From IMG/VR virus record IMGVR_UViG_2541047865_000002: 27,464 nucleotides of DNA. One strand, written 5' to 3'. This DNA is from a virus (taxonomy: Duplodnaviria; Heunggongvirae; Uroviricota; Caudoviricetes). This document shows, in pieces, positions 1 to 22,245 of this stretch; the first letter of the stretch is position 1, and each line of letters begins with the position of its first letter. Made by a program: the position numbers and the translations under genes. The notes under the pieces were generated by a model. That model was not told the DNA's origin. It made no database searches and saw only the letters and a program-made list of their open reading frames with translations.

Positions 1-1284
1 TTACTTCTTCGCCTCTGCAACCACTTTGCTACCCACGCCGCGATTATTGTATTCCCACATGCGGTTGTAGTTAGTGTCATTCAGATTGCGCTGTATTTCG
101 TCGCTATCGTCAACGCTGCCGGTATTACCCGCAAATGGACGATTGGAAATCACCGCATCGCCCCACGGTTTAACCGTGTTAAAACCTTCGTTGATGGCGC
201 TATCACGGATCACCACCTGACCGTTGGTATTGGCATCAACATCCAGCGAGCGGCCCAGTTGTGCCACGCCATCACCGGAAGCATTGAAACGGCTGTTTAC
301 GGCGAGGAAACCGTAATAGATGTTGGACAGCGTAGCCGGTGCAAACACATACGCTTCTTGCTGAGTACGTGAGTTCACCACGCGGAATTCGGTGTTATCG
401 AACACCACTGCGCCGCGACCAGAAACGATATCCACATCCCCTTCAATATAGCTGTTGGTCACCAGCGTACGCGGCTGACGGTTGGTTTCCAGACGGTTCT
501 GCACACCGCTGTTGGTGACAAAGAAGGTGTTCTGACGACCGAGAATGTTAACGTTGTTAATCTGTACCTGGTCACCATCAGTACGCAGTGCCACCGCCGG
601 ATGGTTACCTGCATCTACGCTATCGCCCAGCGTGTTTTCGATGGTCAGATTTTGCAGTTGCAGGCCATTGTTTTGTGACCAGAAGACCGCAGAGCAGAGA
701 ACACCGATACTGTCGCTGCGTTTGCTCTGGCAGCTATCGTACATATACCACGCTGGTTTACCTGGCATATATTTGCCGCGCGGGTTGACGTCGTGACGCC
801 AGTCGGTAGGGCTCATGCCACCATCAAGGGAAAGCCCAATCTTCACATCAATCGGTTTTTCACCTGTACCGTACAGAGTAATTCCACCCGGAGCGGCAGG
901 GACATATACCGTTCCCTGATACTCACCAGGCATCACGGCAATATACTGGCGCTTGTTGGTACGCTTGATAATTGCCGCATCTACCGCCGCCTGAATCGTG
1001 GTATGCGTTACACCTTGAGTGCCCGCCGGGCCGACAACAAATTCAGGTTGCGCAGGCAGGGTAATCGGGGAAGGATTCCACGCTGCAGCACCTGGTGTCA
1101 GGGATGCAAAATAGTGTTGAGCATCGAAATTCTGCGCTTCTTTTGCCGACAGAATCGGGCGAGAAGAGGTACCAGGCGCGGTTTGATCAGAAGGACGTTG
1201 ATCGGGCGGGGTTGAGCTACAGGCGGTCAGCGTCACGCCAAAAGCCAATGCCAGCGCCAGACGGGAAACTGAAAATGTGTTCAC
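1..1284 (-). CDS. ybhC: YbhC, pectinesterase-like outer-membrane lipoprotein (acyl-CoA thioesterase); host gene flanking attB-lambda
   Basis: Complete 427-aa ORF; N-terminal signal peptide with lipobox (LTAC); sequence recalled as E. coli YbhC, which sits on the gal side of att-lambda. Confidence 0.88.
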   Translation of the reverse strand: MNTFSVSRLALALAFGVTLTACSSTPPDQRPSDQTAPGTSSRPILSAKEAQNFDAQHYFASLTPGAAAWNPSPITLPAQPEFVVGPAGTQGVTHTTIQAAVDAAIIKRTNKRQYIAVMPGEYQGTVYVPAAPGGITLYGTGEKPIDVKIGLSLDGGMSPTDWRHDVNPRGKYMPGKPAWYMYDSCQSKRSDSIGVLCSAVFWSQNNGLQLQNLTIENTLGDSVDAGNHPAVALRTDGDQVQINNVNILGRQNTFFVTNSGVQNRLETNRQPRTLVTNSYIEGDVDIVSGRGAVVFDNTEFRVVNSRTQQEAYVFAPATLSNIYYGFLAVNSRFNASGDGVAQLGRSLDVDANTNGQVVIRDSAINEGFNTVKPWGDAVISNRPFAGNTGSVDDSDEIQRNLNDTNYNRMWEYNNRGVGSKVVAEAKK

Positions 1285-1325: not shown

Positions 1326-1420
1326 AGCCTGCTTTTTTATACTAAGTTGGCATTATAAAAAAGCATTGCTTATCAATTTGTTGCAACGAACAGGTCACTA
1401 TCAGTCAAAATAAAATCATT
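1326..1420. other. attL: Lambda-type attL: 15-bp core GCTTTTTTATACTAA (1331..1345) joined to the phage P' arm with Int arm-type sites
   Basis: Exact lambda core sequence; right flank GTTGGCATTATAAAAAAGCATTGCTTATCAATTTGTTGCAACGAACAGGTCACTATCAGTCAAAATAAAATCATTATTTG matches the lambda P' arm (AGGTCACTAT / CAGTCAAAAT arm-type sites); left flank is host DNA. Confidence 0.85.
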
Positions 1421-2489
1421 ATTTGATTTCAATTTTGTCCCACTCCCTGCCTCTGTCATCACGATACTGTGATGCCATGGTGTCCGACTTATGCCCGAGA
1501 AGATGTTGAGCAAACTTATCGCTTATCTGCTTCTCATAGAGTCTTGCAGACAAACTGCGCAACTCGTGAAAGGTAGGCGGATCCCCTTCGAAGGAAAGAC
1601 CTGATGCTTTTCGTGCGCGCATAAAATACCTTGATACTGTGCCGGATGAAAGCGGTTCACGACGAGTAGATGCAATTATGGTTTCTCCGCCAAGAATCTC
1701 TTTGCATTTATCAAGTGTTTCCTTCATTGATATCCCGAGAGCATCAACATGCAATGTTGTTGGGATGGCAATTTTTACGCCTGTTTTGCTTTGCTCGACA
1801 TAAAGATATCCATCTACGATATCAGACCACTTCATTTCGCATAAATCACCAACTCGTTGCCCGGTAACAACAGCCAGTTCCATTGCAAGTCTGAGCCAAC
1901 ATGGTGATGATTCTGCTGCTTGATAAATTTTCAGGTATTCGTCAGCCGTAAGTCTTGATCTCCTTACCTCTGATTTTGCTGCGCGAGTGGCAGCGACAGG
2001 GTTTGTTGTTATATGGCCTTCAGCTATTGCCTCTCGGAATGCATCGCTCAGTGTTGATCTGATTAACTTGGCTGACGCCGCCTTGCCCTCGTCTATGTAT
2101 CCATTGAGCATTGCCGCAATTTCTTTTGTGGTGATGTCTTCAAGTGGAGCATCAGGCAGACCCCTCCTTATTGCTTTAATTTTGCTCATGTAATTTATGA
2201 GTGTCTTCTGCTTGATTCCTCTGCTGGCCAGGATTTTTTCGTAGCGATCAAGCCATGAATGTAACGTAACGGAATTATCACTGTTGATTCTCGCTGTCAG
2301 AGGCTTGTGTTTGTGTCCTGAAAATAACTCAATGTTGGCCTGTATGGCTTCAGTGATTGCGATTCGCCTGTCTCTGCCTAATCCAAACTCTTTACCCGTC
2401 CTTGGGTCCCTGTAGCAGTAATATCCATTGTTTCTTATATAAAGGTTAGGGGGTAAATCCCGGCGCTCATGACTTCGCCTTCTTCCCAT
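1419..2489 (-). CDS. int: Lambda integrase (tyrosine recombinase), 356 aa
   Basis: Protein matches lambda Int as recalled (MGRRRSHERRDLPPNLYIRNNGYYCYRDPRTGKEF...); sits next to attL as in a lambda prophage. Confidence 0.97.
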   Translation of the reverse strand: MGRRRSHERRDLPPNLYIRNNGYYCYRDPRTGKEFGLGRDRRIAITEAIQANIELFSGHKHKPLTARINSDNSVTLHSWLDRYEKILASRGIKQKTLINYMSKIKAIRRGLPDAPLEDITTKEIAAMLNGYIDEGKAASAKLIRSTLSDAFREAIAEGHITTNPVAATRAAKSEVRRSRLTADEYLKIYQAAESSPCWLRLAMELAVVTGQRVGDLCEMKWSDIVDGYLYVEQSKTGVKIAIPTTLHVDALGISMKETLDKCKEILGGETIIASTRREPLSSGTVSRYFMRARKASGLSFEGDPPTFHELRSLSARLYEKQISDKFAQHLLGHKSDTMASQYRDDRGREWDKIEIK

Positions 2490-2724: not shown

Positions 2725-2892
2725 TCAGGCGGCTTGGTGTTCTTTCAGTTCTTCAATTCGAATATTGGTTACGTCTGCATGTGCTATCTGCGCCCACAGC
2801 ATCCAGTGGTCATAGCAGTCGCTGATGTTCTCGGCTTCGATAACTCTGTTGAATGGTTCTCCATTCCATTCACCTGTGACTCGGAAGTGCAT
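2725..2892 (-). CDS. Hypothetical small protein (55 aa, MHFRVTGEWNGEPFNRVIEAENISDCYDHWMLWAQIAHADVTNIRIEELKEHQAA)
   Basis: ORF below the track's length cut-off, found by manual translation; co-oriented with the leftward operon directly downstream of xis; no family recognised. Confidence 0.35.
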   Translation of the reverse strand: MHFRVTGEWNGEPFNRVIEAENISDCYDHWMLWAQIAHADVTNIRIEELKEHQAA

Positions 2893-3134
2893 TTATCATC
2901 TCCATAAAACAAAACCCGCCGTAGCGAGTTCAGATAAAAGAAATCCTCGTCAGTGCGAGGATGCTGTTCATTGCTGCTATACACTTTTTTGCTCTCAACG
3001 TAAGCGGTAGCCCATTCTGTTGGGTTGGTGCAGTTGCTTTTAGGAAATGCTATTTACCCCTTAAATGTCGGCTGAAAGAGCTAAAATCCATGCAAAAAAT
3101 TTACGCAATTTTGTGTATTATTGTGCAGTAAGTA

Positions 3135-3737
3135 ATGAGCTATTTTCTGCGCAAAAAATGGATGGTAAATTTGTCCGGGTCAGGAAAAATTTTATGGGCG
3201 CTAAACATGAAAAAAGATTCGTATCCTTATTTGATTTGCATGACAGTTTCAGGGCTGATCTTTATTTTCCTTTTCTTCTGGTGGCGGGCAGATATCTACA
3301 GGGTCACGTTTCTTAATCAGAGTATATCCCACTATTACATTCTGTTTAGCATGGGAATAGCTTTTCTGTTATCTCTGTTTTGGGTTAAGAAGGGGATAGT
3401 AAAACAAAGAGGCTGGAAGAGTCTGTCAGCATACCTTAAGGTTTATGCAGGGATGTGCATATTTGCTGGATTTTTTCTGATTATACCCCTTACGACACTA
3501 ACTTATTTTTTGCCTGGAGAGACATCGTCTTATGTTGCACCGTATCGGTATACTTCCGGTAGTTCAAAAAGTTGTTCTGGAGCTGAGGTGGATGACCCCG
3601 ATCTACATGAGAATATTCGCATTTGCTATCCGTATGGCAATTATGAGTACGATAATATTATCTATGTTGAAAAGAAAATTAATATATTAGGTGCGGTAGT
3701 GACATATGCACAGACCGCGCGTGATGATACTGAATGA
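3135..3737 (+). CDS. Hypothetical integral membrane protein (about 3 predicted TM helices plus a C-terminal soluble domain of about 75 aa); start may instead be the ATG at 3207
   Basis: 200-codon ORF in visibly AT-rich DNA; hydrophobic stretches LICMTVSGLIFIFLFFWW, ILFSMGIAFLLSLFWV and CIFAGFFLIIPLTTL; transcribed convergently to the phage leftward operon; no family recognised. Confidence 0.55.
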   Translation: MSYFLRKKWMVNLSGSGKILWALNMKKDSYPYLICMTVSGLIFIFLFFWWRADIYRVTFLNQSISHYYILFSMGIAFLLSLFWVKKGIVKQRGWKSLSAYLKVYAGMCIFAGFFLIIPLTTLTYFLPGETSSYVAPYRYTSGSSKSCSGAEVDDPDLHENIRICYPYGNYEYDNIIYVEKKINILGAVVTYAQTARDDTE

Positions 3738-3771
3738 TATAGTATATAGCGGGCAAGTTTTAGTTAATTTA

Positions 3772-3805
3772 TCGAGGTAATATAATTTACCTCGACTCGT
3801 TTGTT
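3772..3805. terminator. Candidate bidirectional intrinsic terminator between convergent genes
   Basis: Perfect 9-bp inverted repeat TCGAGGTAA / TTACCTCGA around a 6-nt loop (3772..3795), followed by a T-rich run CTCGTTTGTTCT. Confidence 0.4.
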
Positions 3806-3947
3806 CTGGTATTAATATTTCGCTTTACGACCGATTTTTATCTGATGATATCATGCGGTTTTCATATACTGACTTACTGTCTTTTCTCCGTTAGCGATTT
3901 TCTCCTGCTCAGCGATGATTTTATCTTTGGCTTCTAGTTAATTTCGC

Positions 3948-4169
3948 TCACTTCGAACCTCTCTGTTTACTGATAAGCTCCAGATCCTCCTGGCAACTTG
4001 CACAAGTCCGACAACCCTGAACGACCAGGCGTCTTCGTTCATCTATCGGATCGCCACACTCACAACAATGAGTGGCAGATATAGCCTGGTGGTTCAGGCG
4101 GCGCATTTTTATTGCTGTGTTGCGCTGTAATTCTTCAATTTCTGATGCTGAATCAATGATGTCTGCCAT
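3948..4169 (-). CDS. TraR/DksA-family C4-type zinc-finger protein, 73 aa
   Basis: C-x2-C...C-x2-C motif (CCECGDPIDERRRLVVQGCRTCASC), typical of phage TraR/DksA-like proteins. Confidence 0.8.
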   Translation of the reverse strand: MADIIDSASEIEELQRNTAIKMRRLNHQAISATHCCECGDPIDERRRLVVQGCRTCASCQEDLELISKQRGSK

Positions 4170-4267
4170 CTTCCATTAATCCCTGAATTGTTGGTTAATA
4201 CGCTTGAGGGTGAATGCGAATAATAAAAAAGGAGCCTGTAGCTCCCTGATGATTTTGCTTTTCATGT

Positions 4268-4579
4268 TCATCGTTCCTTAAAGACGCCGTTTAACATGCC
4301 GATTGCCAGGCTTAAATGAGTCGGTGTGAATCCCATCAGCGTTACCGTTTCGCGGTGCTTCTTCAGTACGCTACGGCAAATGTCATCGACGTTTTTATCC
4401 GGAAACTGCTGTCTGGCTTTTTTGATTTCAGAATTAGCCTGACGGGCAATGCTGCGAAGGGCGTTTTCCTGCTGAGGTGTCATTGAACAAGTCCCATGTC
4501 GGCAAGCATAAGCACACAGAATATGAAGCCCGCTGCCAGAAAAATGCATTCCGTGGTTGTCATACCTGGTCTCTCTCAT
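4268..4579 (-). CDS. Hypothetical phage early protein (103 aa; a 71-aa form from the ATG at 4483 is possible)
   Basis: ORF in the leftward operon; its start overlaps the stop of the upstream ORF (ATGAGAGAGACCAGGTATGA), suggesting translational coupling. Confidence 0.45.
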   Translation of the reverse strand: MRETRYDNHGMHFSGSGLHILCAYACRHGTCSMTPQQENALRSIARQANSEIKKARQQFPDKNVDDICRSVLKKHRETVTLMGFTPTHLSLAIGMLNGVFKER

Positions 4580-4751
4580 CTGCTTCTGCTTTCGCCACCA
4601 TCATTTCCAGCTTTTGTGAAAGGGATGCGGCTAACGTATGAAATTCTTCGTCTGTTTCTACTGGTATTGGCACAAACCTGACTCCAATTTGAGCGAGGCT
4701 ATGTGCCATCTCGATACTCGTTCTTAACTCAACGGGAGATGCTTTGTGCAT
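4560..4751 (-). CDS. Hypothetical phage early protein, 63 aa
   Basis: ORF overlapping both neighbours in the leftward operon; acidic C-terminus; no family recognised. Confidence 0.45.
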   Translation of the reverse strand: MHKASPVELRTSIEMAHSLAQIGVRFVPIPVETDEEFHTLAASLSQKLEMMVAKAEADERDQV

Positions 4752-4912
4752 ACAGCTCCCCGTTTATTATTTATCTCCTCAGCCAGCCGCTGTGCTTTCA
4801 GGGGATTTCGGATAACAGAAAGGCCGGGAAATACCCAGCCTCGCTTCGTAACGGAGTAGACGAAAGTGATCGTGCCTACGCGGATATTATCGTGAGGATG
4901 TTTCATCGCCAT
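4724..4912 (-). CDS. Hypothetical phage early protein, 62 aa
   Basis: ORF immediately downstream of exo; its start overlaps the exo stop region. Confidence 0.4.
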
Positions 4913-5583
4913 TGCTCCCCAAATACAAAACCAATTTCAGCCAGTGCCTCGTCCATTTTTTCGATGAACTCCGGCACCATCTCGTCAAAACTCGCTATAT
5001 ACTTTTCATTCCGCTCAATCACGACATAATGCAGGCCTTCACGCTTCATACGCGGGTCATAGTTGGCAAAGTACCAGGCATCTTTTCGCGTCACCCACAT
5101 GCTGTACTGCACCTGGGCCATGTAAGCCGACTTTATGGCCTCGAAACCACCGAGCCGGAATTTCATGAAATCCCGGGAGGTAAACGGGCATTTCAGCTCA
5201 AGGCCATTGCCGTCACTGCATAAACCATCGGGAGAGCAGGCGGTGCGCATACTTTCGTCGCGATAGATGATCGGGGATTCAATAACATTTACGCCGGAAG
5301 TGAACTCAAACAGGGTTCTGGCGTCGTTCTCGTACTGTTTTCCCCAGGCCAGCGCTTTAGCGTTAACTTCCGGAGCCACACCGGTGCAAACCTCAGCCAG
5401 CAGGGTGTGGAAGTAGGACATTTTCATGTCAGGCCACTTCTTTCCTGATCGGGGCTTTGCTATCACGTTGTGAACTTCTGAAGCGGTGATGACGCCGAGC
5501 CGTAATTTGTGCCATGCATCATCCCCCTGTTCGACAGCTCTCACGTCGATCCCGGTACGCTGCAGGATAATGTCCGGTGTCAT
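4903..5583 (-). CDS. exo: Lambda exonuclease (Red-alpha), 226 aa
   Basis: Near-identical to lambda Exo as recalled ([65 protein letters not shown]...). Confidence 0.97.
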
Positions 5584-6365
5584 GCTGCCACCTTCTGCTC
5601 AGTGGCTTTCTGTTTCAGGAATCCAAGAGCTTTCACTGCTTCGGCCTGTGTCAGTTCTGACGATGCGCGAATGTCGCGGCGAAATATCTGGGAACAGAGC
5701 GGCAATAAGTCGTCATCCCATGTTTTATCCAGGGCGATCAGCAGAGTGTTAATCTCCTGCATGGTTTCATCGTTAACCGGAGTGATGTCGCGTTCCGGCT
5801 GACGTTCTGCAGTGTATGCAGTATTTTCGACAATGCGCTCGGCTTCATCCTTGTCATAGATACCAGCAAATCCGAAGGCCAGACGGGCACACTGAATCAT
5901 GGCTTTATGCCGTAACATCCGTTTGGGATGCGACTGCCACGGTCCGGTGATTTCTCTGCCTTCGCGGGTTTTGAATGGTTCGCGGCGGCATTCATCCATC
6001 CACTCGGTAACGCAGATCGGATGATTGCGGTCTTTGCGGTAAATCCGGCATGTGCAGGATTCGTTGTCCTGTTCAAAGTCCATGCCGTCAAACTGCTGGT
6101 TTTCGTTGATGATGCGGGACCAGCCATCAACGCCCACCACCGGAACGATGCCGTTCTGCTTATCAGGGAAGGCGTAAATTTCTTTCGTCCACGGATTAAG
6201 ACCGTACTGGTTGGCGACGATCAGCAATGCGATGAACTGCGCATCGCTGGCATCACCTTTAAATGCCGTCTGGCGAAGAGTGGTGATCAGTTCCTGTGGG
6301 TCGACAGAATCCATGCCGACTCGTTCAGCCAGCTTCCCAGCCAGCGTTGCGAGTGCTGTACTCAT
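5580..6365 (-). CDS. bet: Lambda Bet (Red-beta) single-strand annealing protein, 261 aa
   Basis: Near-identical to lambda Bet as recalled ([66 protein letters not shown]...). Confidence 0.97.
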
Positions 6366-9271: not shown

Positions 9272-10201
9272 ATGGCAAACACTGCTGAGATATTCAATTT
9301 TCCAGTGCCGGATGTGGCACAAAAGGAGCCGCGCGTGGCAGATCTCGATGATGGTTATACGCGCATTGCAAATGAGTTGCTGGAAGTTGTAATGCTGGCC
9401 GGATTAACACAGCACCAGCTTCTGGTCTTCCTGGCTGTCATGCGCAAAACATATGGCTTTAATAAAAAACTGGATTGGGTGAGCAACGAGCAACTTTCCG
9501 AGTTAACCGGGATATTGCCGCACAAGTGTTCTGCTGCAAAAAGTGTTCTGGTAAAGCGTGGGATTTTAATTCAGAGCGGGCGGAATATCGGCATCAATAA
9601 TGTGGTCAGTGAATGGTCAACATTACCCGAATCAGGTAAGAAAAATAAAGTTTACCTGAAAGAGGTAAATTTACCTGAATCAGGTAAGAAAAGTTTACCT
9701 AAATCAGGTAAACGCCTTTACCCGAATCAGGTAAACACAAAAGACAAACTAACAAAAGACAATATAAAACCTTTTTCGTCAGAGAATTCTGGCGAATCCT
9801 CTGACCAGCCAGAAAACGATCTTCCTGTGGTGAAACCGGATGCTGCAATTCAGAGCGGCAGCAAGTGGGGGACAGCAGAAGACCTGACCGCCGCAGAGTG
9901 GATGTTTGACATGGTGAAGACCATCGCGCCATCAGCCAGAAAACCGAATTTTGCAGGGTGGGCTAACGATATCCGCCTGATGCGTGAACGTGACGGACGT
10001 AACCACCGCGACATGTGTGTACTGTTCCGCTGGGCATGCCAGGACAACTTCTGGTCCGGTAACGTGCTGAGTCCGGCCAAACTCCGCGACAAGTGGACCC
10101 AGCTCGAAATCAACCGAAACAAGCAACAGGCTGGCGTGACAGCCGGCAAACCAAAACTCGACCTGACGAACACTGACTGGATTTACGGGGTGGAGCTATG
10201 A
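9272..10201 (+). CDS. O: Replication initiator O (lambda O-like), containing the ori iterons; start set at the ATG with the strong SD GGGAGGA (the upstream in-frame ATG at 9182 is less likely)
   Basis: N-terminal region VADLDDGYTRIANELLEVVMLAGLTQHQLLVFLAVMRKTYGFNKK resembles lambda O; C-terminal domain lambda-like; stop overlaps the P start. Confidence 0.9.
   Translation: MANTAEIFNFPVPDVAQKEPRVADLDDGYTRIANELLEVVMLAGLTQHQLLVFLAVMRKTYGFNKKLDWVSNEQLSELTGILPHKCSAAKSVLVKRGILIQSGRNIGINNVVSEWSTLPESGKKNKVYLKEVNLPESGKKSLPKSGKRLYPNQVNTKDKLTKDNIKPFSSENSGESSDQPENDLPVVKPDAAIQSGSKWGTAEDLTAAEWMFDMVKTIAPSARKPNFAGWANDIRLMRERDGRNHRDMCVLFRWACQDNFWSGNVLSPAKLRDKWTQLEINRNKQQAGVTAGKPKLDLTNTDWIYGVEL
9623..9734. repeat. 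ori: Origin of replication iterons: five roughly 17-bp repeats TTACC(C/T)(G/A)AA(T/A)(C/G)AGGTAA, followed by an AT-rich segment
   Basis: Repeats at 9623, 9652, 9671, 9695 and 9718 inside O, then an A/T-rich run at 9735..9775, as in ori-lambda. Confidence 0.85.
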
Positions 10202-11590: not shown

Positions 11591-13096
11591 TTATCTATTT
11601 TTTTTTATTAACACATTAATTTCTTCGGTGTTTTGGAGTTGAGTTGTCTTAGAAACAAAAACTCGAATAAAGAATTTAACATAGTGATAGGGTTGAAGTA
11701 CATCGTTATACTTACATAAATCATTTATTGTATACTTGCCGCCTGTTTCTTTTTTTATTATTTTAGCTTGACTTGTATCGATATCTTTAAAGTTATCTTC
11801 AATCTGAAAATCAAGAACCCATTCATCTCCTTTTAAATTATCCTCAATGATTTTGTTGATTTTCTTAGATATATTTTGTTTATATTCTTTGTATCTGTTG
11901 TCGGAAATGTTAACATTAGAAAACGTGTGTTTTTTTTCATATATTTTTTTCCAAACATTTCTATCAACAATATCTTGAATTATAGCTTGAGAATTTTTAT
12001 CTAATGTGTTTTTAAGAGTGTTTTCTAAAAACGTTTTGTCTGGGTTTTCACGATAAAAGTGTTTGATGGACTCAATGAGAGTGTTTTTAGATTTTAAAGA
12101 GACAACATCATCAGTTTTTTTTCTAGAACACGCTTTGTTAAGCATCGCAGATAGTGCACGATTGGTCTTATGAAAATAAACTTGACTATAAAGCCCACTT
12201 CTTGCATTGGCAAATTCTAGTATTGAATCCATACCACTTTCTTTATATGCCAGGTAAACACTATTTTCAACTTTCACAGGAATAAATGACATTAATAATC
12301 GTCCATAATCATAAATCCCATATTTAACGCCGGAGAAGTAGCTATCTCTAAGTAGGTAGTCCATTCTGTCCGCATCTATAGGTGAAGATGATATGATTGA
12401 ACCTAATAAAGGATATACATTTACTCCCTCAATGTTATTTTTAAAATCATATCTTTTATCAACAATTTTTATAATGCTTTCTGGATTAATAGCCGCTATG
12501 TTTTCTTTATAGACATCGTCGTCATTTGATTTATCTTGGGCTTCATTTTTTAATTCTTCAATAATTTCTTTAATAAAAATACATGATACTTGTTCGTGGG
12601 TTAACTTGTCATTATCACTTAAAGATATAATCTTATCGTATTGTTTATTTCCTTCAGTTTTGCATTTTTCTTTGAAATCTTTTACGGATATTGCAAAACT
12701 ATCGAATTGGTGGGCAAGTGGGCCATGCCCAACATCGTGTAACAATGCTGCAATACGTAACTCCTGTATAAGACTTGAAGGCATTTTTTTTATATCTAAA
12801 TATAGATCAATGCCCATATTTTTTCGATTGTAAATTAGTGCATTTAAATCAATATTTTTTAATATTTCATACGATAAATGCATTACACCGACAGAGTGTT
12901 CAAAGCGAGAGTGCATTGCAGAAGGAAATACTTTATATAGAAACGTGTTCTGCCTGATATCTCGTAGTCGTTGGAATAAAGGATGGTCAATTATCTTTTT
13001 TTCTAGCTTAGTTATTCGAATCACTCCATGTATGGGATCTAAAAACTTCCCCAGAAGTAAGTCTTCAAAGTTCTCAAGTTTGTTTTTGTTTGTCAT
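11591..13096 (-). CDS. HD-domain dNTP triphosphohydrolase-like protein (SAMHD1/dGTPase family), 501 aa; candidate anti-phage dNTP-depletion enzyme
   Basis: HD motifs HSRFEHSVGVMHLS, ALLHDVGHGPLAHQFD and DADRMDYLLRDSYFSGVKYG; SD AAGGAAAG upstream; in AT-rich cargo antisense to the phage operon. Confidence 0.8.
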   Translation of the reverse strand: MTNKNKLENFEDLLLGKFLDPIHGVIRITKLEKKIIDHPLFQRLRDIRQNTFLYKVFPSAMHSRFEHSVGVMHLSYEILKNIDLNALIYNRKNMGIDLYLDIKKMPSSLIQELRIAALLHDVGHGPLAHQFDSFAISVKDFKEKCKTEGNKQYDKIISLSDNDKLTHEQVSCIFIKEIIEELKNEAQDKSNDDDVYKENIAAINPESIIKIVDKRYDFKNNIEGVNVYPLLGSIISSSPIDADRMDYLLRDSYFSGVKYGIYDYGRLLMSFIPVKVENSVYLAYKESGMDSILEFANARSGLYSQVYFHKTNRALSAMLNKACSRKKTDDVVSLKSKNTLIESIKHFYRENPDKTFLENTLKNTLDKNSQAIIQDIVDRNVWKKIYEKKHTFSNVNISDNRYKEYKQNISKKINKIIEDNLKGDEWVLDFQIEDNFKDIDTSQAKIIKKETGGKYTINDLCKYNDVLQPYHYVKFFIRVFVSKTTQLQNTEEINVLIKKNR

Positions 13097-13455: not shown

Positions 13456-13716
13456 TTAAATTGCATCTGCAAACTCTGGGATTTTTCGCTCAAGTATGAT
13501 TGATGAGTTGCTGTTGTCGCTTTTTTTATTTTCATGATTACGAATAGCCAATGACTCATTAAAGTCTTTTGCGACTGCTGTCTCAATAAATTCAATTTCT
13601 GAATCAGAGTGTTTTTTAACAGCTTCTTTGATCTCATCCAGAGTAACATAGAAAAACTCTTTTCTACGATTTACAAGATTGACTCTCTTTTTATCGAAGA
13701 CATCATGTAGTTTTTT
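13456..13716 (-). other. -1-frame continuation of the T5orf172 domain (LHDVFDKKRVNLVNRRKEFFYVTLDEIKEAVKKH...), entered at slippery heptamer A_AAA_AAC (13710..13716); either a programmed frameshift or a homopolymer frameshift mutation
   Basis: Manual translation: the domain's expected C-terminal motifs are open for 87 codons in the -1 frame starting exactly at a 7-A run; no ATG in that frame; the zero frame stops 17 codons later. Confidence 0.6.
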
Positions 13717-14957
13717 TCTAATGATGGAGCGTCCTCCGAATAAATCATGGCATGCACATCAAAAATAAAAGGAACAGATGCATCACCAAGCTCATTTACA
13801 CGGTCTTGTGGATCAAGACGTCGTGTCATGCCTATTTTATAAACATTCTCCCCAAAAGAACCTATGTTCGAAATAATATAAACATGACCTTGTTTGGTTT
13901 GTTGTGCCATGGATAATGCTCTTTGATGCTTTGATTCAGCCTGCGACAAACTCTGTTCTAGTTCGGCAATGCGATTTTCGAGGCGCTGCTTCATGTCACC
14001 AGTAACTTTTTCCATTTCCTTTCTTGCAGCTTCAATTGCTTTTTTATAACGGCGCTCTTCTGCCTCTGCGTCTTGCATGGCCTTTTCTATTTCTCGTTGT
14101 GCACGCTCCTCCTCTCTCATTTGTGCCCTTATTTCTGCCTGTTCTTCTTTTTCTTTCTGTTTTTGCTCACGATATTCATGGGTAAGCCACAACTCCTCAA
14201 GTTTTTTATTAAGGTATTTAGTATTTATATATATGTGATTTTGCTCGTTTAGTTTATTTATGGCCTCAAATGCCTTTGTGATGCGTTCTTCCATTTTAGT
14301 GATATTTTTCCACGTGCAATTACTAATTGCAGCATCACATTCATTATTAAATGCTCTAGTAGTTAGCCTAATATTTCTGTCTGTCATTTTTTTACCCTCT
14401 GCTCGAGAGCCTTCAACAGTCCATTGGGTTGTGCAATATACTGCACCAGAGTGGGTTTTATCCCGCAGCATTAATTTCTGTTCATCCCTGATGGATTTTA
14501 TTTTGTTTTTAAATTGCTCTGAATCTTCAAAATTAAAATGAGGTTCGTAAAATCCTAGTTCGGCTAGTTCAACATCTTCTGAATAAATAGAAATTTGCTT
14601 TACTAACTTATCATATATTTCTTTCTTCTCTTTATAAGTTCTTCTTAGTTCTTGGATTTGTTTATTGATACCATCCATTTTTTCAATGGTGTTTGTTAGT
14701 TCATTATTGGCATTTTCTTTTACTTTTTGGGACTCTTCTTTTATAATGGAGCATTCTTGCTCTGTTTTCTCAATAAGCTTCTTACATTCCTCTTCCACAT
14801 TAAAATAATCTGCAAAGCGAGATTTGTATTCTTCATTTTTTTGATTGCTATCACTTAATTCTAATTGTATTTTTTTGATGCGTTTGATTGCAGCTATATA
14901 TAGAACAAGAACAACCAATAAAAATATGATTGCAAGTAATAGTGGAGTTTGAGTCAT
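13671..14957 (-). CDS. Membrane-anchored coiled-coil protein with DUF4041 and the N-terminal part of a T5orf172 (GIY-YIG-like) domain; 428 aa in the zero frame
   Basis: N-terminal TM helix LLLAIIFLLVVLVLYIAAI; long coiled-coil (EERAQREIEKAMQDAEAEERRYKK...); DUF4041-like core; C-terminal GHVYIISNIGSFGENVYKIGMTRRLDPQDRVNELGDASVPFIFDVHAMIYSEDAPSLE; SD AAGGAA upstream. Confidence 0.85.
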   Translation of the reverse strand: MTQTPLLLAIIFLLVVLVLYIAAIKRIKKIQLELSDSNQKNEEYKSRFADYFNVEEECKKLIEKTEQECSIIKEESQKVKENANNELTNTIEKMDGINKQIQELRRTYKEKKEIYDKLVKQISIYSEDVELAELGFYEPHFNFEDSEQFKNKIKSIRDEQKLMLRDKTHSGAVYCTTQWTVEGSRAEGKKMTDRNIRLTTRAFNNECDAAISNCTWKNITKMEERITKAFEAINKLNEQNHIYINTKYLNKKLEELWLTHEYREQKQKEKEEQAEIRAQMREEERAQREIEKAMQDAEAEERRYKKAIEAARKEMEKVTGDMKQRLENRIAELEQSLSQAESKHQRALSMAQQTKQGHVYIISNIGSFGENVYKIGMTRRLDPQDRVNELGDASVPFIFDVHAMIYSEDAPSLEKNYMMSSIKRESIL

Positions 14958-17406: not shown

Positions 17407-17931
17407 TTATTGTTTAACCCATAATAATTCATTGACATTGAATCCCAACTTTTGAGCGGTTCGCACATAGTCTGCTTTTACTTTATCTGGAATAGTTGGG
17501 GTCCTTGCCAGAATCCATAGGTATTCTCTGTTCGGACCACTGACAAGAGCATACTTATACTCATCATCCAGTTTGATTACATTATAGCCACCATAGAAGG
17601 GGCCAAAAAACGAAACCTTCAACGCTGCAGTTTTAGTATCTCCAGTAAAGTATGCTTTACCTTCGCTCTCGCTCCATTTATTTTTCGTTGGATCGTATCC
17701 ACGGTTAAGTACACGAATCCCTCCGTCGTTCCGTTTTCCATAAGTAGCGCTGACCTGTTCCAGACCACGTTCGAATCGGTTCTCGAGGCGAGCTATTTCA
17801 TACCACTTTCCGAGGTAGCGGTTGGCGTCAAAATTTGTAATCGGCTGCACACCTTTAGGTGGTGTCGGGACCTTACATGCTATAAGAGTGAAAGAGAGTG
17901 CAATGCCAGTCAACACAGGCCATAACTTCAT
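17407..17931 (-). CDS. Blc-like bacterial lipocalin, outer-membrane lipoprotein, 174 aa
   Basis: Signal peptide with lipobox (LIAC); strong similarity to E. coli Blc as recalled (FDANRYLGKWYEIARLENRFERGLE...SEGKAYFTGDTKTAALKVSFFGPFYGGYNVI...YLWILARTP). Confidence 0.85.
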   Translation of the reverse strand: MKLWPVLTGIALSFTLIACKVPTPPKGVQPITNFDANRYLGKWYEIARLENRFERGLEQVSATYGKRNDGGIRVLNRGYDPTKNKWSESEGKAYFTGDTKTAALKVSFFGPFYGGYNVIKLDDEYKYALVSGPNREYLWILARTPTIPDKVKADYVRTAQKLGFNVNELLWVKQ

Positions 17932-18123
17932 AATAAATCCTGTACTTTTGATAGTTGAGAGTAAGTATGAAAGATAGATGATTACGACCGATCACTTAAA
18001 GAACTTTCATACTATATTAGGAATAGTCCATAACAGAAAAATTGTCAGTGATGACGCCAGAAAGGCAATTTATTCCGTGCACTACACAGTTTATGTGTTA
18101 ATGAATTAGTCAAGGGGGAGGAT

Positions 18124-19083
18124 ATGATAAAAAAACCTGTGATTGGAATCAGCGGTTGTCTGGCCGGTTCTGCTGTTCGTTTTGATGGTGGTCACAAAAG
18201 AGCTGACTTTTTAATGGACAAATTAGTGGAATGGGTAACATTCAGACCAGTATGTCCGGAAATGGCTATAGGGCTGCCAGTTCCGCGTCCTGCTCTACGT
18301 CTTGTGCGCTCGACGCAAGGAAATATACGGATGTGTTTCAGCCACGACCAGAATGAGGATGTGACAGAGAGAATGACAGAGTTTAGTCGTTCTTATATGG
18401 ACAAATTAAAGGATGTATCGGGGTTTGTGGTTTGTGCTAAATCTCCCAGCTGTGGCATGGAGCGCGTGCGTGTCTATGATGAAAATGGTAATCGAGGTCG
18501 TAAAGATGGAGTGGGACTATTTACGAGCACTTTGATGGAAAAGTTTTCCTGGCTACCGGTTGAAGAGGATGGGCGATTACATGATCCAGTGCTTCGTGAG
18601 AATTTTGTTGAAAGAGTTTTTGCTTTGCATGAGCTCAATCACCTTTACAAGGAGAAATTATCAAGAAGAGAGTTATTAGCTTTTCATAGTCGTTATAAGC
18701 TTCAGTTGTTGGCGCATAGTCAGGCAGGCTATAAAGATATGGGACCATTTGTGGCTGCAATACACGAGTGGGCGGACCTTGAATCATACTTTGAGGTGTA
18801 TCGTGATAAGCTGATGGCGATTCTCAGAAAACCTGCATCACGTAAAAATCACACGAATGTGCTGATGCATATACAGGGGTATTTTAGTAACTACTTAAGT
18901 ACACGCCAGCGTAAAGAGTTGAGCGAGGTTATACTTAACTATCGTTCTGGCACATTACCTCTTCTTGCGCCGTTGACTCTGCTGAAGCATTATCTGGGTG
19001 AGTATCCTAATGATTACTTGCTTACACAGAATTACTTCGATCCCTATCCGGACGAACTGGCTCTAAGACTGATGGTAAATTAA
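18124..19083 (+). CDS. DUF523 (TudS-like, putative Fe-S thiouracil desulfidase) plus DUF1722 (YbgA-like) fusion protein, 319 aa
   Basis: N-terminal VIGISGCLAGSAVRFDGGHK with conserved Cys residues (C12, C44, C104/C109); C-terminal YbgA-like half; strong SD GGGGGAGGA. Confidence 0.75.
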   Translation: MIKKPVIGISGCLAGSAVRFDGGHKRADFLMDKLVEWVTFRPVCPEMAIGLPVPRPALRLVRSTQGNIRMCFSHDQNEDVTERMTEFSRSYMDKLKDVSGFVVCAKSPSCGMERVRVYDENGNRGRKDGVGLFTSTLMEKFSWLPVEEDGRLHDPVLRENFVERVFALHELNHLYKEKLSRRELLAFHSRYKLQLLAHSQAGYKDMGPFVAAIHEWADLESYFEVYRDKLMAILRKPASRKNHTNVLMHIQGYFSNYLSTRQRKELSEVILNYRSGTLPLLAPLTLLKHYLGEYPNDYLLTQNYFDPYPDELALRLMVN

Positions 19084-19425
19084 TTGTATGCGATATCATC
19101 CAAAAGGATGAGTTCCTGCATGCAGGATATTTACAATCGTAAAAACTACACTATGATACCCAGAGTGTCAGTTTGTATAAAAACTCTGTTTACGCTGAAG
19201 AAACCATTGAGATGCAACTTAAAGTTGGTAAACATGCCAGTCAAAATATATAATATTATGATTCCACGCAGCTATATATAATATAACAGATTGGTTTAAT
19301 AATTTGTCTTTGTGAGTTAAATACATAATTTTATACTTGTGATGCAATGAGATTTTCCTTATTGTTGAACTGGCGAATATTGATTTTCCACCTATACTTA
19401 CCTGGTGTAACCCCAATGATATCAG

Positions 19426-20160
19426 GTGGATAATATGCCATACATATGTTCTATCATTTTGGTGTTGAACTCGTTTGATGTCCGAATTGGTAAAGAAGAT
19501 ATTTTATTTAAAAAAGGAAGTGCTGTTCTCATTGATTACAATTTAAAAGATTTTTTTTCATCAAATATAGATCATGCAATGATCGTAGATGTTGAAGAGA
19601 AAACAGTTAATGATTTCTTTAAAAGCAACACACTCTCACCTTTTTCTGTAAGAAGGTTTTATCCGGCATACTTGATGGTGGAATGTGAAGATTTTTCATT
19701 GTTAAAGAACTTGATTGCATGCTTGAATTGTGATGGCAGAACTGTGGATTTTGTTAGAAATCAAATATCACTTGCATGTCTTGCTATCTTATCTTCAGAG
19801 AAAATAGTGCAAAGTTTTTTATTTGGATGTCTTAATAGTTTAGGAAGTAAAGTTAAGGCTATTATTCACACGGATATATCTGCAGCATGGAGACTTTGTG
19901 ATATATCTTCAAGACTGTATCTGAGTGAAAGTCTGTTAAAAAGAAAATTAAAGCACGAAGGCTTATCATTTAGTAAGTTAATTCTTGAAGAGCGAATGGT
20001 GATGGCGGAAAGGTTATTAAGCTACAATTTATATTCTGTTGGAAAAGTTACTGAGATATGCGGTTATGAAAACACGTCATATTTTGTAAGTGTTTTCAGA
20101 AGATATTTTGGTGTTCCTCCCCATCAATATTCATCAAGATTTTTTTTAGAAAAGACATGA
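19426..20160 (+). CDS. AraC/XylS-family transcriptional regulator, 244 aa
   Basis: C-terminal double HTH (…ERLLSYNLYSVGKVTEICGYENTSYFVSVFRRYFGVPPHQY); gene is visibly AT-rich with rare-codon flavour, suggesting horizontal acquisition. Confidence 0.85.
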   Translation: MDNMPYICSIILVLNSFDVRIGKEDILFKKGSAVLIDYNLKDFFSSNIDHAMIVDVEEKTVNDFFKSNTLSPFSVRRFYPAYLMVECEDFSLLKNLIACLNCDGRTVDFVRNQISLACLAILSSEKIVQSFLFGCLNSLGSKVKAIIHTDISAAWRLCDISSRLYLSESLLKRKLKHEGLSFSKLILEERMVMAERLLSYNLYSVGKVTEICGYENTSYFVSVFRRYFGVPPHQYSSRFFLEKT

Positions 20161-20227
20161 TGTAACGTGATGCGTTTTAATGATTTTGTAATTTTCGTAT
20201 TTGATAATTGTATGATGCTTTCAGCTA

Positions 20228-20258
20228 CGCCAGAATAATCGCTGGCGTTTTTCTTTTT
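20228..20258 (+). terminator. Intrinsic terminator downstream of the AraC-family gene
   Basis: Hairpin CGCCAG-AATAATCG-CTGGCG followed by TTTTTCTTTTT. Confidence 0.5.
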
Positions 20259-20353
20259 GAATAGATGTTCAAGCCTTACGCTAATGTAACTTCTATACCT
20301 TTCCTCTTCGTTCCGAACCGTGTACACCATCCGTTATTTGCGGAGGTGAGGCT

Positions 20354-20569
20354 ATGAAATCCATGGATAAGTTAACAACGGGTGTCGCCTATGGCACCTC
20401 AGCAGGTAGTGCCGGTTACTGGTTTTTACAGCTGCTCGATAAAGTCACGCCCTCACAGTGGGCAGCAATAGGTGTGCTGGGTAGCCTGGTATTTGGCCTG
20501 CTGACGTACCTGACAAACCTTTATTTCAAGATTAAAGAAGATAAGCGCAAGGCTGCGAGAGGTGAATAA
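20354..20569 (+). CDS. S: Class II holin (phage 21 S21-type pinholin), 71 aa
   Basis: [71 protein letters not shown] closely matches S21 as recalled; two TM segments. Confidence 0.9.
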
Positions 20570-20987
20570 TGCCTCCATCATTACGAAAAGCCGTTGCTGC
20601 TGCTATTGGTGGCGGGGCTATTGCTATAGCATCTGTGCTAATCACTGGCCCAAGTGGTAACGATGGTCTGGAGGGTGTGAGACATAATCCTTACAAAGAC
20701 ATAGTTGGTGTATGGACTGTATGTTACGGGCATACAGGAAAAGACATCATTCCTGGTAAAACGTATACCGAAGCAGAGTGCAAAGCCCTCCTGAATAAAG
20801 ACCTTGCCACTGTCGCCAGACAAATTAACCCGTACATCAAAGTCGATATACCGGAAACAACGCGCGGCGCTCTTTACTCGTTCGTCTACAACGTGGGTGC
20901 TGGCAATTTCAGAACATCGACGCTTCTTCGCAAAATAAACCAGGGTGATATTAAAGGCGCATGTGATCAGCTACGGCGCTGGACATA
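20569..20987 (+). pseudogene. R: SAR endolysin (phage 21 R-type lysozyme) truncated by IS3 after about 139 codons
   Basis: N-terminal SAR domain [27 protein letters not shown] and lysozyme core match R21; the ORF runs into the IS3 terminal repeat at 20988 and ends in IS-encoded residues. Confidence 0.85.
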
Positions 20988-21017
20988 TGATCCTACCCAC
21001 GTAATATGGACACAGGC

Positions 21018-22180: not shown

Positions 22181-22245
22181 GTGAGTCACCTCTGACTGAG
22201 AGTTTACTCACTTAGCCGCGTGTCCACTATTGCTGGGTAAGATCA

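What the first reader, a model, noticed from the sequence alone, without database searches (positions are those of the whole stretch)
3135..3737. Convergently transcribed membrane-protein gene in AT-rich DNA between xis and exo
Where lambda carries the ea/orf genes on the leftward strand, this prophage has a 200-codon plus-strand ORF with three predicted TM helices and a Tyr/Gly/Asp-rich soluble tail, in visibly AT-rich sequence, ended by a strong bidirectional hairpin (3772..3795). Independent, lysogen-expressed membrane proteins at this position are candidates for superinfection exclusion or abortive-infection factors.
Basis: inference. Interest (0 to 1): 0.55.

Follow-up and report, generated by a model that had tools for sequence, protein, structure and literature searches.

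The report
Untested membrane-protein moron in 434-like prophage
This is a real, conserved prophage cargo gene for a small inner-membrane protein with an outward-facing beta-barrel domain; it is carried by about one in six E. coli genomes and also sits in the known defence hotspot of P2-like phages, but nobody has tested what it does.

Summary
The ORF is real and strongly conserved (dN/dS 0.09-0.17). The conserved gene is 3207..3737 (176 aa), not the 200-codon ORF from 3135. Every diverged homologue starts at Met25, and none has an upstream in-frame extension. It is the 'putative membrane protein' of phage 434 (CPT_434_36) and PGAP's hypothetical protein WP_001348592.

The model (pLDDT 92.7) has three TM helices, N-terminus inside. 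The C-terminal 70 residues form a five-stranded OB-like beta-barrel, predicted periplasmic, with two invariant cysteines.

The gene lies in an AT-rich cassette (3070-3827) with a conserved promoter-like element and a plus-strand terminator. The terminator is not bidirectional.

The same cassette (76% DNA identity) sits in P2-like prophages between gpA and portal gpQ. That is the old/tin defence hotspot, where Rousset et al. 2022 list the family as untested 'System #4, 3 TM' (470 occurrences).

GC-native, syntenic orthologues exist in Enterobacter chromosomes.

There is no match in Pfam, NCBIfam, PADLOC or PDB, and no relationship to SieA or NfeD.

An exclusion or defence role is plausible and now better supported by context, but it remains unproven.

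The parts
3070..3827 (+). Mobile AT-rich cassette (promoter region + gene + terminator) shared with P2-like prophages
   Evidence: blastn: window 3070-3827 = L022 5864-6619, 76% identity over 761 columns. GC is 0.373 against 0.46/0.50 in the flanks.
3100..3127 (+). Three direct TTGTGCA-like repeats with a 10-11 bp period (TTTACGCA / TTGTGTA / TTGTGCA); a possible upstream regulator site, factor unknown
   Evidence: Conserved block in the alignment of lambdoid and P2-type cassettes. The pair at 3111-3127 matches TTGTGCANNNTTGTGCA with 1 mismatch. The 434 annotators called 3111-3124 a CII consensus, but that pattern is at chance frequency.
3163..3171 (+). TGGTAAATT, an extended -10-like promoter element (inferred); implies a transcription start near 3178
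   Evidence: T, G, T, A, A, T, T are invariant in all five diverged cassettes. The function is inferred, not shown.
3135..3206 (+). Non-conserved 24-codon N-terminal extension of the PGAP gene model (the 434 annotators used TTG 3171 instead)
   Evidence: Absent or closed by stops in all diverged homologues. It lies upstream of the inferred transcription start.
3195..3198 (+). TGGG Shine-Dalgarno-like element 8 nt before ATG 3207
   Evidence: Invariant columns T156 G157 G158 G159 of alignment A2.
3207..3737 (+). Conserved coding sequence, 176 aa plus stop
   Evidence: Met25 is invariant and is the start of all distant homologues. dN/dS is 0.09-0.17. Only frame +1 is open in all 8 homologues.
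3222..3293 (+). TM helix 1 (residues 6-29 of the 176-aa protein)
   Evidence: AF2 model helix 6-29; hydropathy peak.
3294..3317 (+). Short outside loop with the conserved I-Y-R-x-T-F-L motif, contributing a strand (34-36)
   Evidence: I30, R32, T34 and L36 are invariant in A6. Strand E34-36 appears in the model.
3318..3389 (+). TM helix 2 (residues 38-61)
3390..3440 (+). Basic cytoplasmic loop (6 Lys/Arg, no acidic residue), which sets the N-in/C-out topology
   Evidence: Charge count per loop. Topology follows from the positive-inside rule (established knowledge).
3414..3509 (+). TM helix 3 (model helix 70-101; hydrophobic core about 79-102)
3519..3719 (+). C-terminal five-stranded beta-barrel domain (residues 105-171), predicted periplasmic; the most conserved region
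3573..3575 (+). Cys123 codon (TGT), invariant
   Evidence: One of only three invariant columns among 35 diverse members.
3624..3626 (+). Cys140 codon (TGC), invariant; inferred disulfide partner of Cys123
   Evidence: Invariant. Both cysteines flank the beta-hairpin 125-130/135-140 of the model. The disulfide itself is inferred.
3772..3805 (+). Intrinsic terminator-like hairpin (9-bp stem, 6-nt loop) followed by CTCGTTTGTT; plus strand only
   Evidence: A hairpin at the same place in the 76%-identical P2-type cassette keeps pairing through one two-sided change (A-T to G-C).

Best explanation
The feature is a moron: a self-contained, horizontally mobile cassette at 3070-3827. It is inserted antisense to the pL operon of a 434/lambda-type prophage.

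It encodes a 176-aa inner-membrane protein (CDS 3207..3737) with three TM helices and its N-terminus in the cytoplasm. The C-terminal 70 residues form a disulfide-stabilised OB-like beta-barrel that sits on the periplasmic face, together with the conserved TM1-TM2 loop.

Shown: the gene is real and under purifying selection, the cassette has defined boundaries, and it also occurs in the P2 defence hotspot. Predicted with high model confidence: the topology and the fold.

Inferred: it is transcribed from its own promoter in the lysogen. Its periplasmic domain then binds a conserved envelope component. This would be either a host inner-membrane or periplasmic protein that incoming phages need, or a conserved part of the phage injection machinery. 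The result would be to block genome entry of superinfecting phages, i.e. superinfection exclusion acting at the inner membrane or periplasm.
For: Gene reality:
- dN/dS is 0.09-0.17 against homologues of 59-78% identity, and only this frame is open in all of them.

Cassette autonomy:
- DNA homology to the P2-type copy spans promoter region, gene and terminator.
- TGnTAAATT and the SD-like GGG are conserved.
- The plus-strand terminator is real.
- GC is 0.37-0.39 against 0.46-0.55 in the flanks, in both lambdoid and P2 contexts.

Cargo-hotspot location in two unrelated phage types:
- In the lambdoid prophage it takes the place of lambda's ea8.5/ea22.
- In E. coli, Salmonella and Klebsiella P2-like prophages it lies between gpA and portal gpQ. 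That locus holds old and tin and many validated defence systems.
- The family is the fourth most frequent cargo there: 'System #4, 3 TM', 470 occurrences, 51% identical to the window protein.

Envelope action:
- The model has pLDDT 92.7.
- The loop of +6 charge forces N-in/C-out topology.
- The outside domain is the most conserved part, with two invariant cysteines.

Prevalence:
- 905 of 5426 complete E. coli genomes carry it.

Base rate:
- 6 of 8 randomly chosen unknown P4-hotspot loci conferred defence. Machine-learning methods predict that 15-32% of unknown P2-hotspot proteins are antiviral.
Against: - There are no expression or phenotype data for any family member. It was catalogued but not cloned by Rousset et al..
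- No similarity was found to any known exclusion or defence family: PADLOC none, the PHROG match is to a family of unknown function only, SieA probability 0.3%.
- Fold searches give only generic barrels.
- Orthologues with native GC (0.50-0.55, GC3 up to 0.73) sit at a conserved chromosomal locus in at least 6 Enterobacter species, with no phage genes nearby. This is unusual for a dedicated anti-phage gene and suggests a cellular function.
- From my own knowledge of the classical literature, lambda plates on 434 lysogens, so any exclusion would not target lambda strongly.
- P2 hotspots also carry non-defence cargo such as partition systems and toxins.
- The promoter is inferred from conservation only.
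Confidence: 0.4

Rival explanations
1. It is a lysogenic-conversion or fitness factor unrelated to phage defence. The protein would retain the cellular function of its chromosomal Enterobacter relatives, for example modulating an envelope transporter, sensor or stress pathway through its periplasmic domain. Phages would carry it because it benefits the lysogen, as with bor, lom or pagC-type morons.
For: - Syntenic, GC-native chromosomal orthologues under purifying selection occur in Enterobacter, Klebsiella sp. R390 and Pseudescherichia, beside LysR regulators and a GGDEF/HAMP protein. In E. mori the gene lies 16 nt downstream of a LysR gene.
- The family is spread through Enterobacterales and some Pseudomonas as a single gene, including on Pantoea plasmids.
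- The periplasmic domain is under strong purifying, not diversifying, selection.
- P2 hotspots also hold non-defence cargo.
Against: - The phage-borne clade recurs specifically in loci enriched for anti-phage genes, in two phage families.
- The chromosomal orthologues evolve 3-10 times faster at non-synonymous sites than their neighbours (omega 0.2-0.38 against 0.02-0.11). That does not look like a core housekeeping function.
- No partner gene is conserved next to it.
Confidence: 0.3
2. It is an immunity or protection protein against a periplasm-acting toxin such as a bacteriocin, a T6SS or CDI effector, or an exogenous lysozyme. The membrane-anchored periplasmic barrel would bind and neutralise the toxin, as colicin M immunity protein or MliC/PliC-type inhibitors do (comparison from my own knowledge).
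For: - The architecture fits: an inner-membrane anchor plus a small disulfide-containing periplasmic beta domain.
- It is a single gene with no partner.
- It occurs on plasmids and in chromosomes as well as in phages.
Against: - No toxin, T6SS or bacteriocin genes were seen next to any copy examined.
- There is no sequence or fold match to known immunity proteins or lysozyme inhibitors.
Confidence: 0.1
3. It is an abortive-infection membrane effector. The protein would depolarise or permeabilise the inner membrane when an infecting phage triggers it, in the manner of RexB or other TM effectors.
For: It is a small multi-TM protein in defence hotspots. Rousset et al. note that TM proteins in known systems are usually suicide effectors.
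Against: - No sensor partner is conserved beside it.
- The best-conserved part is the outside-facing soluble domain rather than the helices.
- It is stably maintained as a native chromosomal gene in Enterobacter.
- There is no PADLOC hit.
Confidence: 0.08
4. It has a lytic-cycle or establishment function for the phage itself, for example a CII-activated gene (as the 434 annotators' binding-site call suggests) or a modulator of lysis or injection, rather than a prophage-expressed moron.
For: A TTGT-N6-TTGT match to the CII consensus lies at 3111-3124, upstream of the gene. The repeats are conserved.
Against: - The consensus occurs at chance frequency in the window (6 observed, 7.2 expected).
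- The repeats are equally conserved in P2-type cassettes, and P2-like phages have no CII (P2 biology from my own knowledge).
- The gene is absent from lambda and most lambdoid phages, being present in only 3 distinct phages in INPHARED, so it is dispensable.
- It is antisense to pL transcription.
Confidence: 0.07

Closest known systems
P2-hotspot 'System #4' (single 3-TM protein, no Pfam) of Rousset et al. 2022, Table S5B; E. coli P2-type allele WP_000711113
   Same: It is the same protein family. The listed sequence is 51% identical (E = 2e-56), and the WP_000711113 allele is 78% identical. Length, three TM helices, the SCSGA / I-C-Y-P motifs and the single-gene cassette all match. The cassette DNA is 76% identical including both flanks.
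   Different: The window copy sits in a lambdoid prophage between xis/ORF55 and the TraR-like gene, not between gpA and gpQ. Neither copy has been functionally tested.
Phage 434 CPT_434_36 / mEp332 XSB40999 / PGAP WP_001348592 (annotated hypothetical or 'putative membrane protein')
   Same: It is the same gene at 98.7-100% DNA identity, in the same position.
   Different: The gene models disagree: 200 aa from ATG 3135 (PGAP, mEp332), 188 aa from TTG 3171 (434), and 112 aa in older records. Comparative evidence favours 176 aa from ATG 3207.
P22 SieA (inner-membrane superinfection-exclusion protein)
   Same: It is a prophage-encoded, single-gene inner-membrane protein of similar size (164 aa) with its own promoter. 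It blocks genome entry. This is the proposed working analogy.
   Different: There is no homology (hhalign probability 0.3%). The architecture also differs: SieA has no C-terminal beta-barrel.
T4 Sp and Imm, HK97 gp15, Cor/Llp (small envelope proteins that block phage DNA entry or receptors; from my own knowledge)
   Same: They are small membrane-anchored proteins acting from the periplasmic side. Several are encoded as morons in temperate phages.
   Different: No sequence relationship was detected in PHROGs or PADLOC. They have one or two TM helices or a lipid anchor, not three TM helices plus an OB-like barrel. The resemblance is functional analogy only, and untested.
Short NfeD proteins (e.g. 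E. coli YbbJ, PF01957)
   Same: They have N-terminal TM helices followed by a C-terminal OB-fold beta-barrel. A weak BFVD hit to an NfeD-like protein was found (rank 15).
   Different: - There is no sequence or profile similarity (hhalign 0.9%).
- No adjacent stomatin/PHB partner gene was seen.
- The barrel here is predicted to be periplasmic, with an invariant Cys pair.

Membership tests
Moron (independent cargo transcription unit in a temperate phage; Hendrix/Juhala definition, from my own knowledge) | Present in some but not other closely related phages, at a junction between conserved genes | tested here: met
   Lambda has ea8.5/ea22 in the slot between the ORF55 homologue and the TraR-like gene. 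905 of the 2474 genomes with flank matches carry the cassette.
Moron (independent cargo transcription unit in a temperate phage; Hendrix/Juhala definition, from my own knowledge) | Nucleotide composition distinct from neighbouring phage genes | tested here: met
   GC is 0.37-0.39 against 0.46-0.50 in the window, and 0.38-0.44 against 0.52-0.57 in P2 contexts.
Moron (independent cargo transcription unit in a temperate phage; Hendrix/Juhala definition, from my own knowledge) | Own terminator | tested here: met
   Plus-strand terminator-like hairpin at 3772-3795, dG -12.9, z = -3.6. A hairpin is retained in the diverged P2-type cassette.
Moron (independent cargo transcription unit in a temperate phage; Hendrix/Juhala definition, from my own knowledge) | Own promoter, active in the lysogen | tested here: inconclusive
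   TGnTAAATT and the upstream repeats are conserved across cassettes, but the consensus scan found no canonical -35/-10 pair upstream. Expression cannot be tested with these tools.
P2-hotspot cargo family 'System #4 (3 TM)' (Rousset et al. 2022) | Sequence homology over the full length to the listed protein | tested here: met
   51% identity over 168 residues, E = 2e-56. The P2-type allele WP_000711113 is listed in Table S5A.
P2-hotspot cargo family 'System #4 (3 TM)' (Rousset et al. 2022) | Location between gpA and portal gpQ of a P2-like prophage | tested here: not met
   The window copy is in a lambdoid prophage. Homologues of 55-78% identity are at the P2 locus. It is the same protein family in a different phage context.
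P22 SieA superinfection-exclusion family | Sequence/profile homology to SieA | tested here: not met
   hhalign probability 0.3%.
Known anti-phage defence families (PADLOC-DB v2) | Match to any defence-protein HMM | tested here: not met
   No hit at E up to 1. As a positive control, PD-Lambda-1 elsewhere in the window scores 3e-169.
Superinfection-exclusion proteins (functional class) | Expressed from the prophage; blocks DNA entry or the receptor of superinfecting phage | not testable with these tools
   This needs plating, adsorption and DNA-entry assays. No published test was found.
Superinfection-exclusion proteins (functional class) | Envelope localisation | tested here: met
   This is a prediction only: three TM helices, N-in/C-out, with an outside domain bearing an invariant Cys pair.
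NfeD (PF01957) | Pfam/profile match and an adjacent stomatin/PHB-domain partner | tested here: not met
   No Pfam hit for any of 35 members. hhalign against YbbJ gives 0.9%. No PHB gene lies next to any copy.
PHROG 1416 (phage protein family, unknown function) | HMM match | tested here: met
   E = 7e-51 over residues 113-200 of the 200-aa model. The 90-residue profile covers only TM3 plus the barrel. Short gene calls such as the 81-112 aa cluster entries could account for this, but the PHROG membership was not examined.
Class I holins (3 TM) | N-out/C-in topology, location in the lysis cassette, about 100 aa | tested here: not met
   The topology is N-in/C-out with a 70-aa folded outside domain. 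The gene lies between xis and exo, antisense to pL.

The most novel reading that the evidence does not exclude
The family is a new single-protein envelope-acting anti-phage (superinfection-exclusion) factor, defined by three TM helices plus a disulfide-bonded OB-like periplasmic barrel. It would have been recruited from a native Enterobacteriaceae membrane protein and would now shuttle as a promoter-gene-terminator cassette between lambdoid and P2-like phages. This would make it one of the most common untested defence genes of E. coli: about 17% of complete genomes, and the fourth-ranked P2-hotspot cargo.
Probability: 0.35. Interest if true: 0.6.

Novelty: new member of a known kind. Interest (0 to 1): 0.45.

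Why it matters
This gene is very common. About one in six complete E. coli genomes carries the lambdoid allele. Relatives are the fourth most frequent cargo of the P2 defence hotspot, and they also occur in Salmonella and Klebsiella prophages. Yet the family has no Pfam, NCBIfam, PADLOC or PDB relative and no published test.

The work here gives a corrected gene model (176 aa from 3207), cassette boundaries for cloning with native signals (3070-3827), and a confident topology and structure model with obvious mutational targets (Cys123, Cys140, the I-Y-R-x-T-F-L loop and the K-R-S-N-x-L-G strand). It also shows that the same cassette moves between two unrelated temperate-phage families and has native chromosomal relatives.

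If it excludes phages, it would be a new family of envelope-level defence with relevance to phage therapy and host-range prediction. If it does not, it is a widespread lysogenic-conversion factor acting on the cell envelope.

Tried and rejected
1. The 200-aa (ATG 3135) and 188-aa (TTG 3171) gene models are rejected. The extension is absent or closed by stops in all diverged homologues, and it lies upstream of the conserved -10-like element.
2. The overlapping 83-aa frame is rejected because stops interrupt it in the homologues.
3. The 56-aa ORF at 2961..3131 (434 'putative membrane protein' CPT_434_35) lies mostly outside the shared cassette and overlaps the tL4 terminator, so it is probably spurious.
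4. The 'bidirectional' terminator is rejected; it is plus-strand only.
5. The CII-site reading of 3111-3124 fails because the consensus occurs at chance frequency and the repeats are conserved in P2-type cassettes.
6. SieA homology is rejected.
7. NfeD homology is rejected.
8. Pfam, NCBIfam, PADLOC and PDB sequence searches gave nothing.
10. I compared the upstream repeats by eye with remembered consensus sites (CRP, MarA/SoxS box, PurR/LacI-type, TyrR, the 434 operator, P2 Ogr). None fitted; this was done from memory, not with a tool.
11. The 112-aa 'truncated' form on at least 1000 contigs looks like an alternative start call, not a real truncation. Most complete genomes matching the P2-type cassette at 95% identity or more cover it in full, and the one locus inspected has an intact 176-aa CDS. 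A few genuinely truncated remnants do exist.
13. Literature searches for mEp332, WP_001348592, OL657226, 434 exclusion and lambdoid membrane morons found no functional data.
Full report
WHAT IS THERE

The window starts with chromosomal ybhC (1..1284, minus). It then enters a lambdoid prophage integrated at the lambda attachment site. The genes in order are int (1419..2489, minus), xis, ORF55 (2725..2892, minus), the target ORF on the plus strand, a TraR/DksA zinc-finger gene (3948..4169, minus), then exo, bet and gam.

The 200-codon ORF at 3135..3737 exists. No minus-strand ORF of 40 aa or more overlaps it. The region is AT-rich: the gene is 0.39 GC, against 0.462 to the left and 0.504 to the right. 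In phage lambda the same slot, between the ORF55 homologue and the TraR-like gene, holds ea8.5 and ea22 on the leftward strand.

IT IS AN ALREADY ANNOTATED BUT UNCHARACTERISED GENE

The DNA from 2900 to 4000 is at least 80% covered in 905 of 5426 complete E. coli genomes. PGAP calls the product 'hypothetical protein' WP_001348592.1.

The region is 98.7-99.6% identical in phages 434, mEp332 and 2B8, which are the only phages in the collection that encode it. The 434 annotators call it 'putative membrane protein' CPT_434_36 and start it at TTG 3171. The 1991 434 int-xis record calls the beginning 'ORF-22+'. The 434 genome announcement says only that the morons differ from lambda's.

Pfam, NCBIfam and PADLOC give nothing. 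PHROG 1416 (unknown function) matches the C-terminal 88 residues.

GENE MODEL

There are 74 homologues in the 5.8-billion-protein collection, and only 51 cluster representatives among 1.84 billion. The family is small. It is confined to Enterobacterales (Escherichia, Shigella, Salmonella, Klebsiella, Enterobacter, Citrobacter, Cedecea, Pseudescherichia, Pantoea, Erwinia, Phytobacter, Proteus) plus a few Pseudomonas. All members are 'hypothetical'.

All members below about 90% identity are 166-189 aa and begin at the residue aligned with Met25 of the 200-aa model. In eight diverged loci an in-frame stop lies 3-54 nt upstream of that ATG. A TGGG element 8 nt upstream is invariant in five cassettes. 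The conserved CDS is therefore 3207..3737, 176 aa.

dN/dS against homologues of 78%, 71% and 59% identity is 0.12, 0.09 and 0.17. Only this frame is open in all eight homologues.

PROTEIN

Hydropathy shows three segments. The loop between TM2 and TM3 has six basic and no acidic residues, while the C-terminal 64 residues are net acidic. By the positive-inside rule the N-terminus is cytoplasmic and the C-terminal domain is periplasmic.

AlphaFold2 with a 35-sequence alignment gives mean pLDDT 92.7. The model has helices 6-29, 38-61 and 70-101, a short strand at 34-36 from the outside loop, and five strands between 105 and 171. The domain modelled alone gives pLDDT 93.

Across 35 diverse members the only invariant columns are Cys123, Cys140 and Gly162. 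The two cysteines flank one beta-hairpin, which is compatible with a periplasmic disulfide. The outside domain is more constrained than the helices (dN/dS 0.087-0.11 against 0.15-0.22).

- Nothing in BFVD reaches E 0.001.
- A PDB sequence profile search finds nothing.

Two specific leads were tested and failed: P22 SieA (hhalign 0.3%) and the architecturally similar NfeD protein YbbJ (0.9%).

CASSETTE AND SIGNALS

DNA homology between the window and an E. coli P2-type copy (76% identity) runs from 3070 to 3827. That range covers 137 nt upstream of the ATG and 90 nt downstream.

The upstream part holds three TTGTGCA-like direct repeats with a 10-11 bp period (3100-3127). It also holds a TGnTAAATT element (3163-3171) whose T, G, T, A, A, T, T positions are invariant in five cassettes. 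I read this as an extended -10 with a transcription start near 3178. That is an inference; the simple -35/-10 scan finds no canonical promoter upstream.

The 434 annotators' 'CII site' at 3111-3124 is part of the repeats. The CII consensus occurs at chance frequency in the window (6 observed, 7.2 expected), and the repeats are just as conserved in P2-type cassettes. The CII reading is therefore unsupported.

The hairpin at 3772-3795 (dG -12.9 kcal/mol, z = -3.6, then CTCGTTTGTT) is terminator-like on the plus strand only. The P2-type cassette keeps a hairpin at the same place, with one A-T to G-C double change.

CONTEXTS ELSEWHERE

The phage-borne clade (55-78% identical) sits in P2-like prophages of E. 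coli, Salmonella and Klebsiella, between the portal gene and replication gene A. It is always at the gpA-proximal end. It lies beside variable cargo, including a YafO toxin, a 790-aa AAA_16 protein and ParM/StbB.

Rousset et al. 2022 showed that this gpA-gpQ interval, which holds old and tin in P2, is a hotspot of anti-phage systems. Their Table S5B lists as 'System #4' a single protein with no Pfam domain, '3 TM', and 470 occurrences. Its sequence is 51% identical (E = 2e-56) to the window protein. The P2-type allele WP_000711113 recurs in their Table S5A. The sequence is absent from their table of cloned and tested systems.

A 2026 survey reports three relevant figures. First, 19% of P2-like phages have only unknown genes at the hotspot. 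Second, machine-learning methods flag 15-32% of the unknown P2-hotspot proteins as antiviral. Third, 6 of 8 randomly chosen unknown P4 loci conferred defence.

By contrast, the 36-48% identical members in Enterobacter (at least 6 species), Klebsiella sp. R390 and Pseudescherichia are chromosomal. Some, including the Klebsiella and several Enterobacter copies, lie beside LysR regulators. The Enterobacter copies are syntenic, lying next to a GGDEF/HAMP gene and an AI-2E transporter. No lambda or P2 markers lie within 8 kb, and GC is native (0.47-0.55, GC3 up to 0.73). They are under purifying selection but evolve faster than their neighbours (omega 0.2-0.38 against 0.02-0.11).

INTERPRETATION

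Shown:
- It is a real, constrained gene.
- It is a portable promoter-gene-terminator cassette, found in the cargo slots of two unrelated temperate-phage families.

Predicted with confidence:
- It is an inner-membrane protein whose conserved business end faces the periplasm.

Inferred:
- It is expressed in the lysogen and acts on the envelope.

I rank superinfection exclusion at the level of genome entry as the most likely function (0.4), because of the hotspot context and the architecture. A non-defence envelope or conversion function inherited from the chromosomal relatives is a close rival (0.3). It is supported by the native Enterobacter orthologues and by the purifying rather than diversifying selection on the outside domain. 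Immunity to periplasm-acting toxins (0.1), an abortive-infection effector (0.08) and a lytic-cycle function (0.07) are less likely.

The conserved outside domain suggests a conserved target, such as a host envelope protein, rather than a rapidly evolving phage protein.

VERDICT

The gene is known and catalogued, yet its function is unknown. It is best filed as a new member of a known kind (a prophage membrane-protein moron) and as a good, cheap experimental target. Interest is moderate.

Noticed in passing
window 3100-3127: Three TTGTGCA-like direct repeats with a 10-11 bp period lie about 50-80 nt upstream of the inferred transcription start. They are conserved between the lambdoid and P2-type cassettes. 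They look like a binding site for a direct-repeat-recognising regulator, but no known consensus that I could recall fits.
   Followed up: partly
window 2961-3131: The 56-aa plus-strand ORF annotated in phage 434 as 'putative membrane protein' (CPT_434_35) overlaps the tL4 terminator hairpin (2943-2962). It lies mostly outside the cassette shared with P2-type copies, so it is probably not a gene.
   Followed up: partly
window 13671-14957 (minus strand): A 428-aa protein with DUF4041 and MUG113 (T5orf172-type) domains matches the PADLOC PD-Lambda-1 model at E = 3e-169. The same prophage therefore carries at least one recognised anti-phage gene.
   Followed up: partly
window 11591-13096 (minus strand): A 501-aa HD-domain protein lies next to PD-Lambda-1. 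It has no PADLOC hit and its role is unexplained; it could be further defence cargo.
   Followed up: no
window 17407-24912: After the replication region come a lipocalin (Blc-like) gene, a 2-thiouracil desulfurase/DUF1722 gene, an AraC-type regulator and an IS3-family transposase (21018-21884). The lambda-type tape-measure gene (22333-24912) follows directly. No Q, lysis or head genes lie in between, so the prophage looks rearranged or defective.
   Followed up: partly
L023 (JARKOR010000073.1, 3561 bp): A contig binned as 'Candidatus Nanosynbacter sp.' MAG is made of three pieces that are 99-100% identical to separate parts of this window (2907-5864, 9719-10045, 22107-22248). It is a mis-binned, chimeric E. 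coli prophage contig.
   Followed up: yes
L036 3271-3641 and L037 3283-3654: In E. coli P2-like prophages the cassette is followed by an ead/Ea22-like pseudogene fragment. Ea22 is the gene lambda carries at the equivalent lambdoid slot. This hints that the cassette moved between the lambdoid b-region and the P2 hotspot together with flanking DNA.
   Followed up: no
L011 5085-6510; L025 and L032 7085-8510: In Enterobacter mori, Enterobacter sp. RIT637 and E. vonholyi the chromosomal orthologue starts 16 nt after a same-strand LysR-type regulator gene, suggesting co-transcription. In E. cloacae that LysR gene appears degraded.
   Followed up: partly
L005 5284-5888, L014 5227-5831: In Salmonella P2-like prophages an 81-aa and a 119-aa ORF with no Pfam hits often precede the cassette on the same strand. 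They are absent from other copies, so they are probably separate cargo.
   Followed up: no
window 3135-3737 and public records: Public gene models for this locus disagree: 200 aa (PGAP, mEp332), 188 aa from TTG (434), 176 aa (some GenBank records), and 112 or 81 aa (older records; the 112-aa form is on at least 1000 contigs). PHROG 1416 covers only the last 88 residues; short gene calls of this kind could explain that, but the PHROG membership was not checked.
   Followed up: yes
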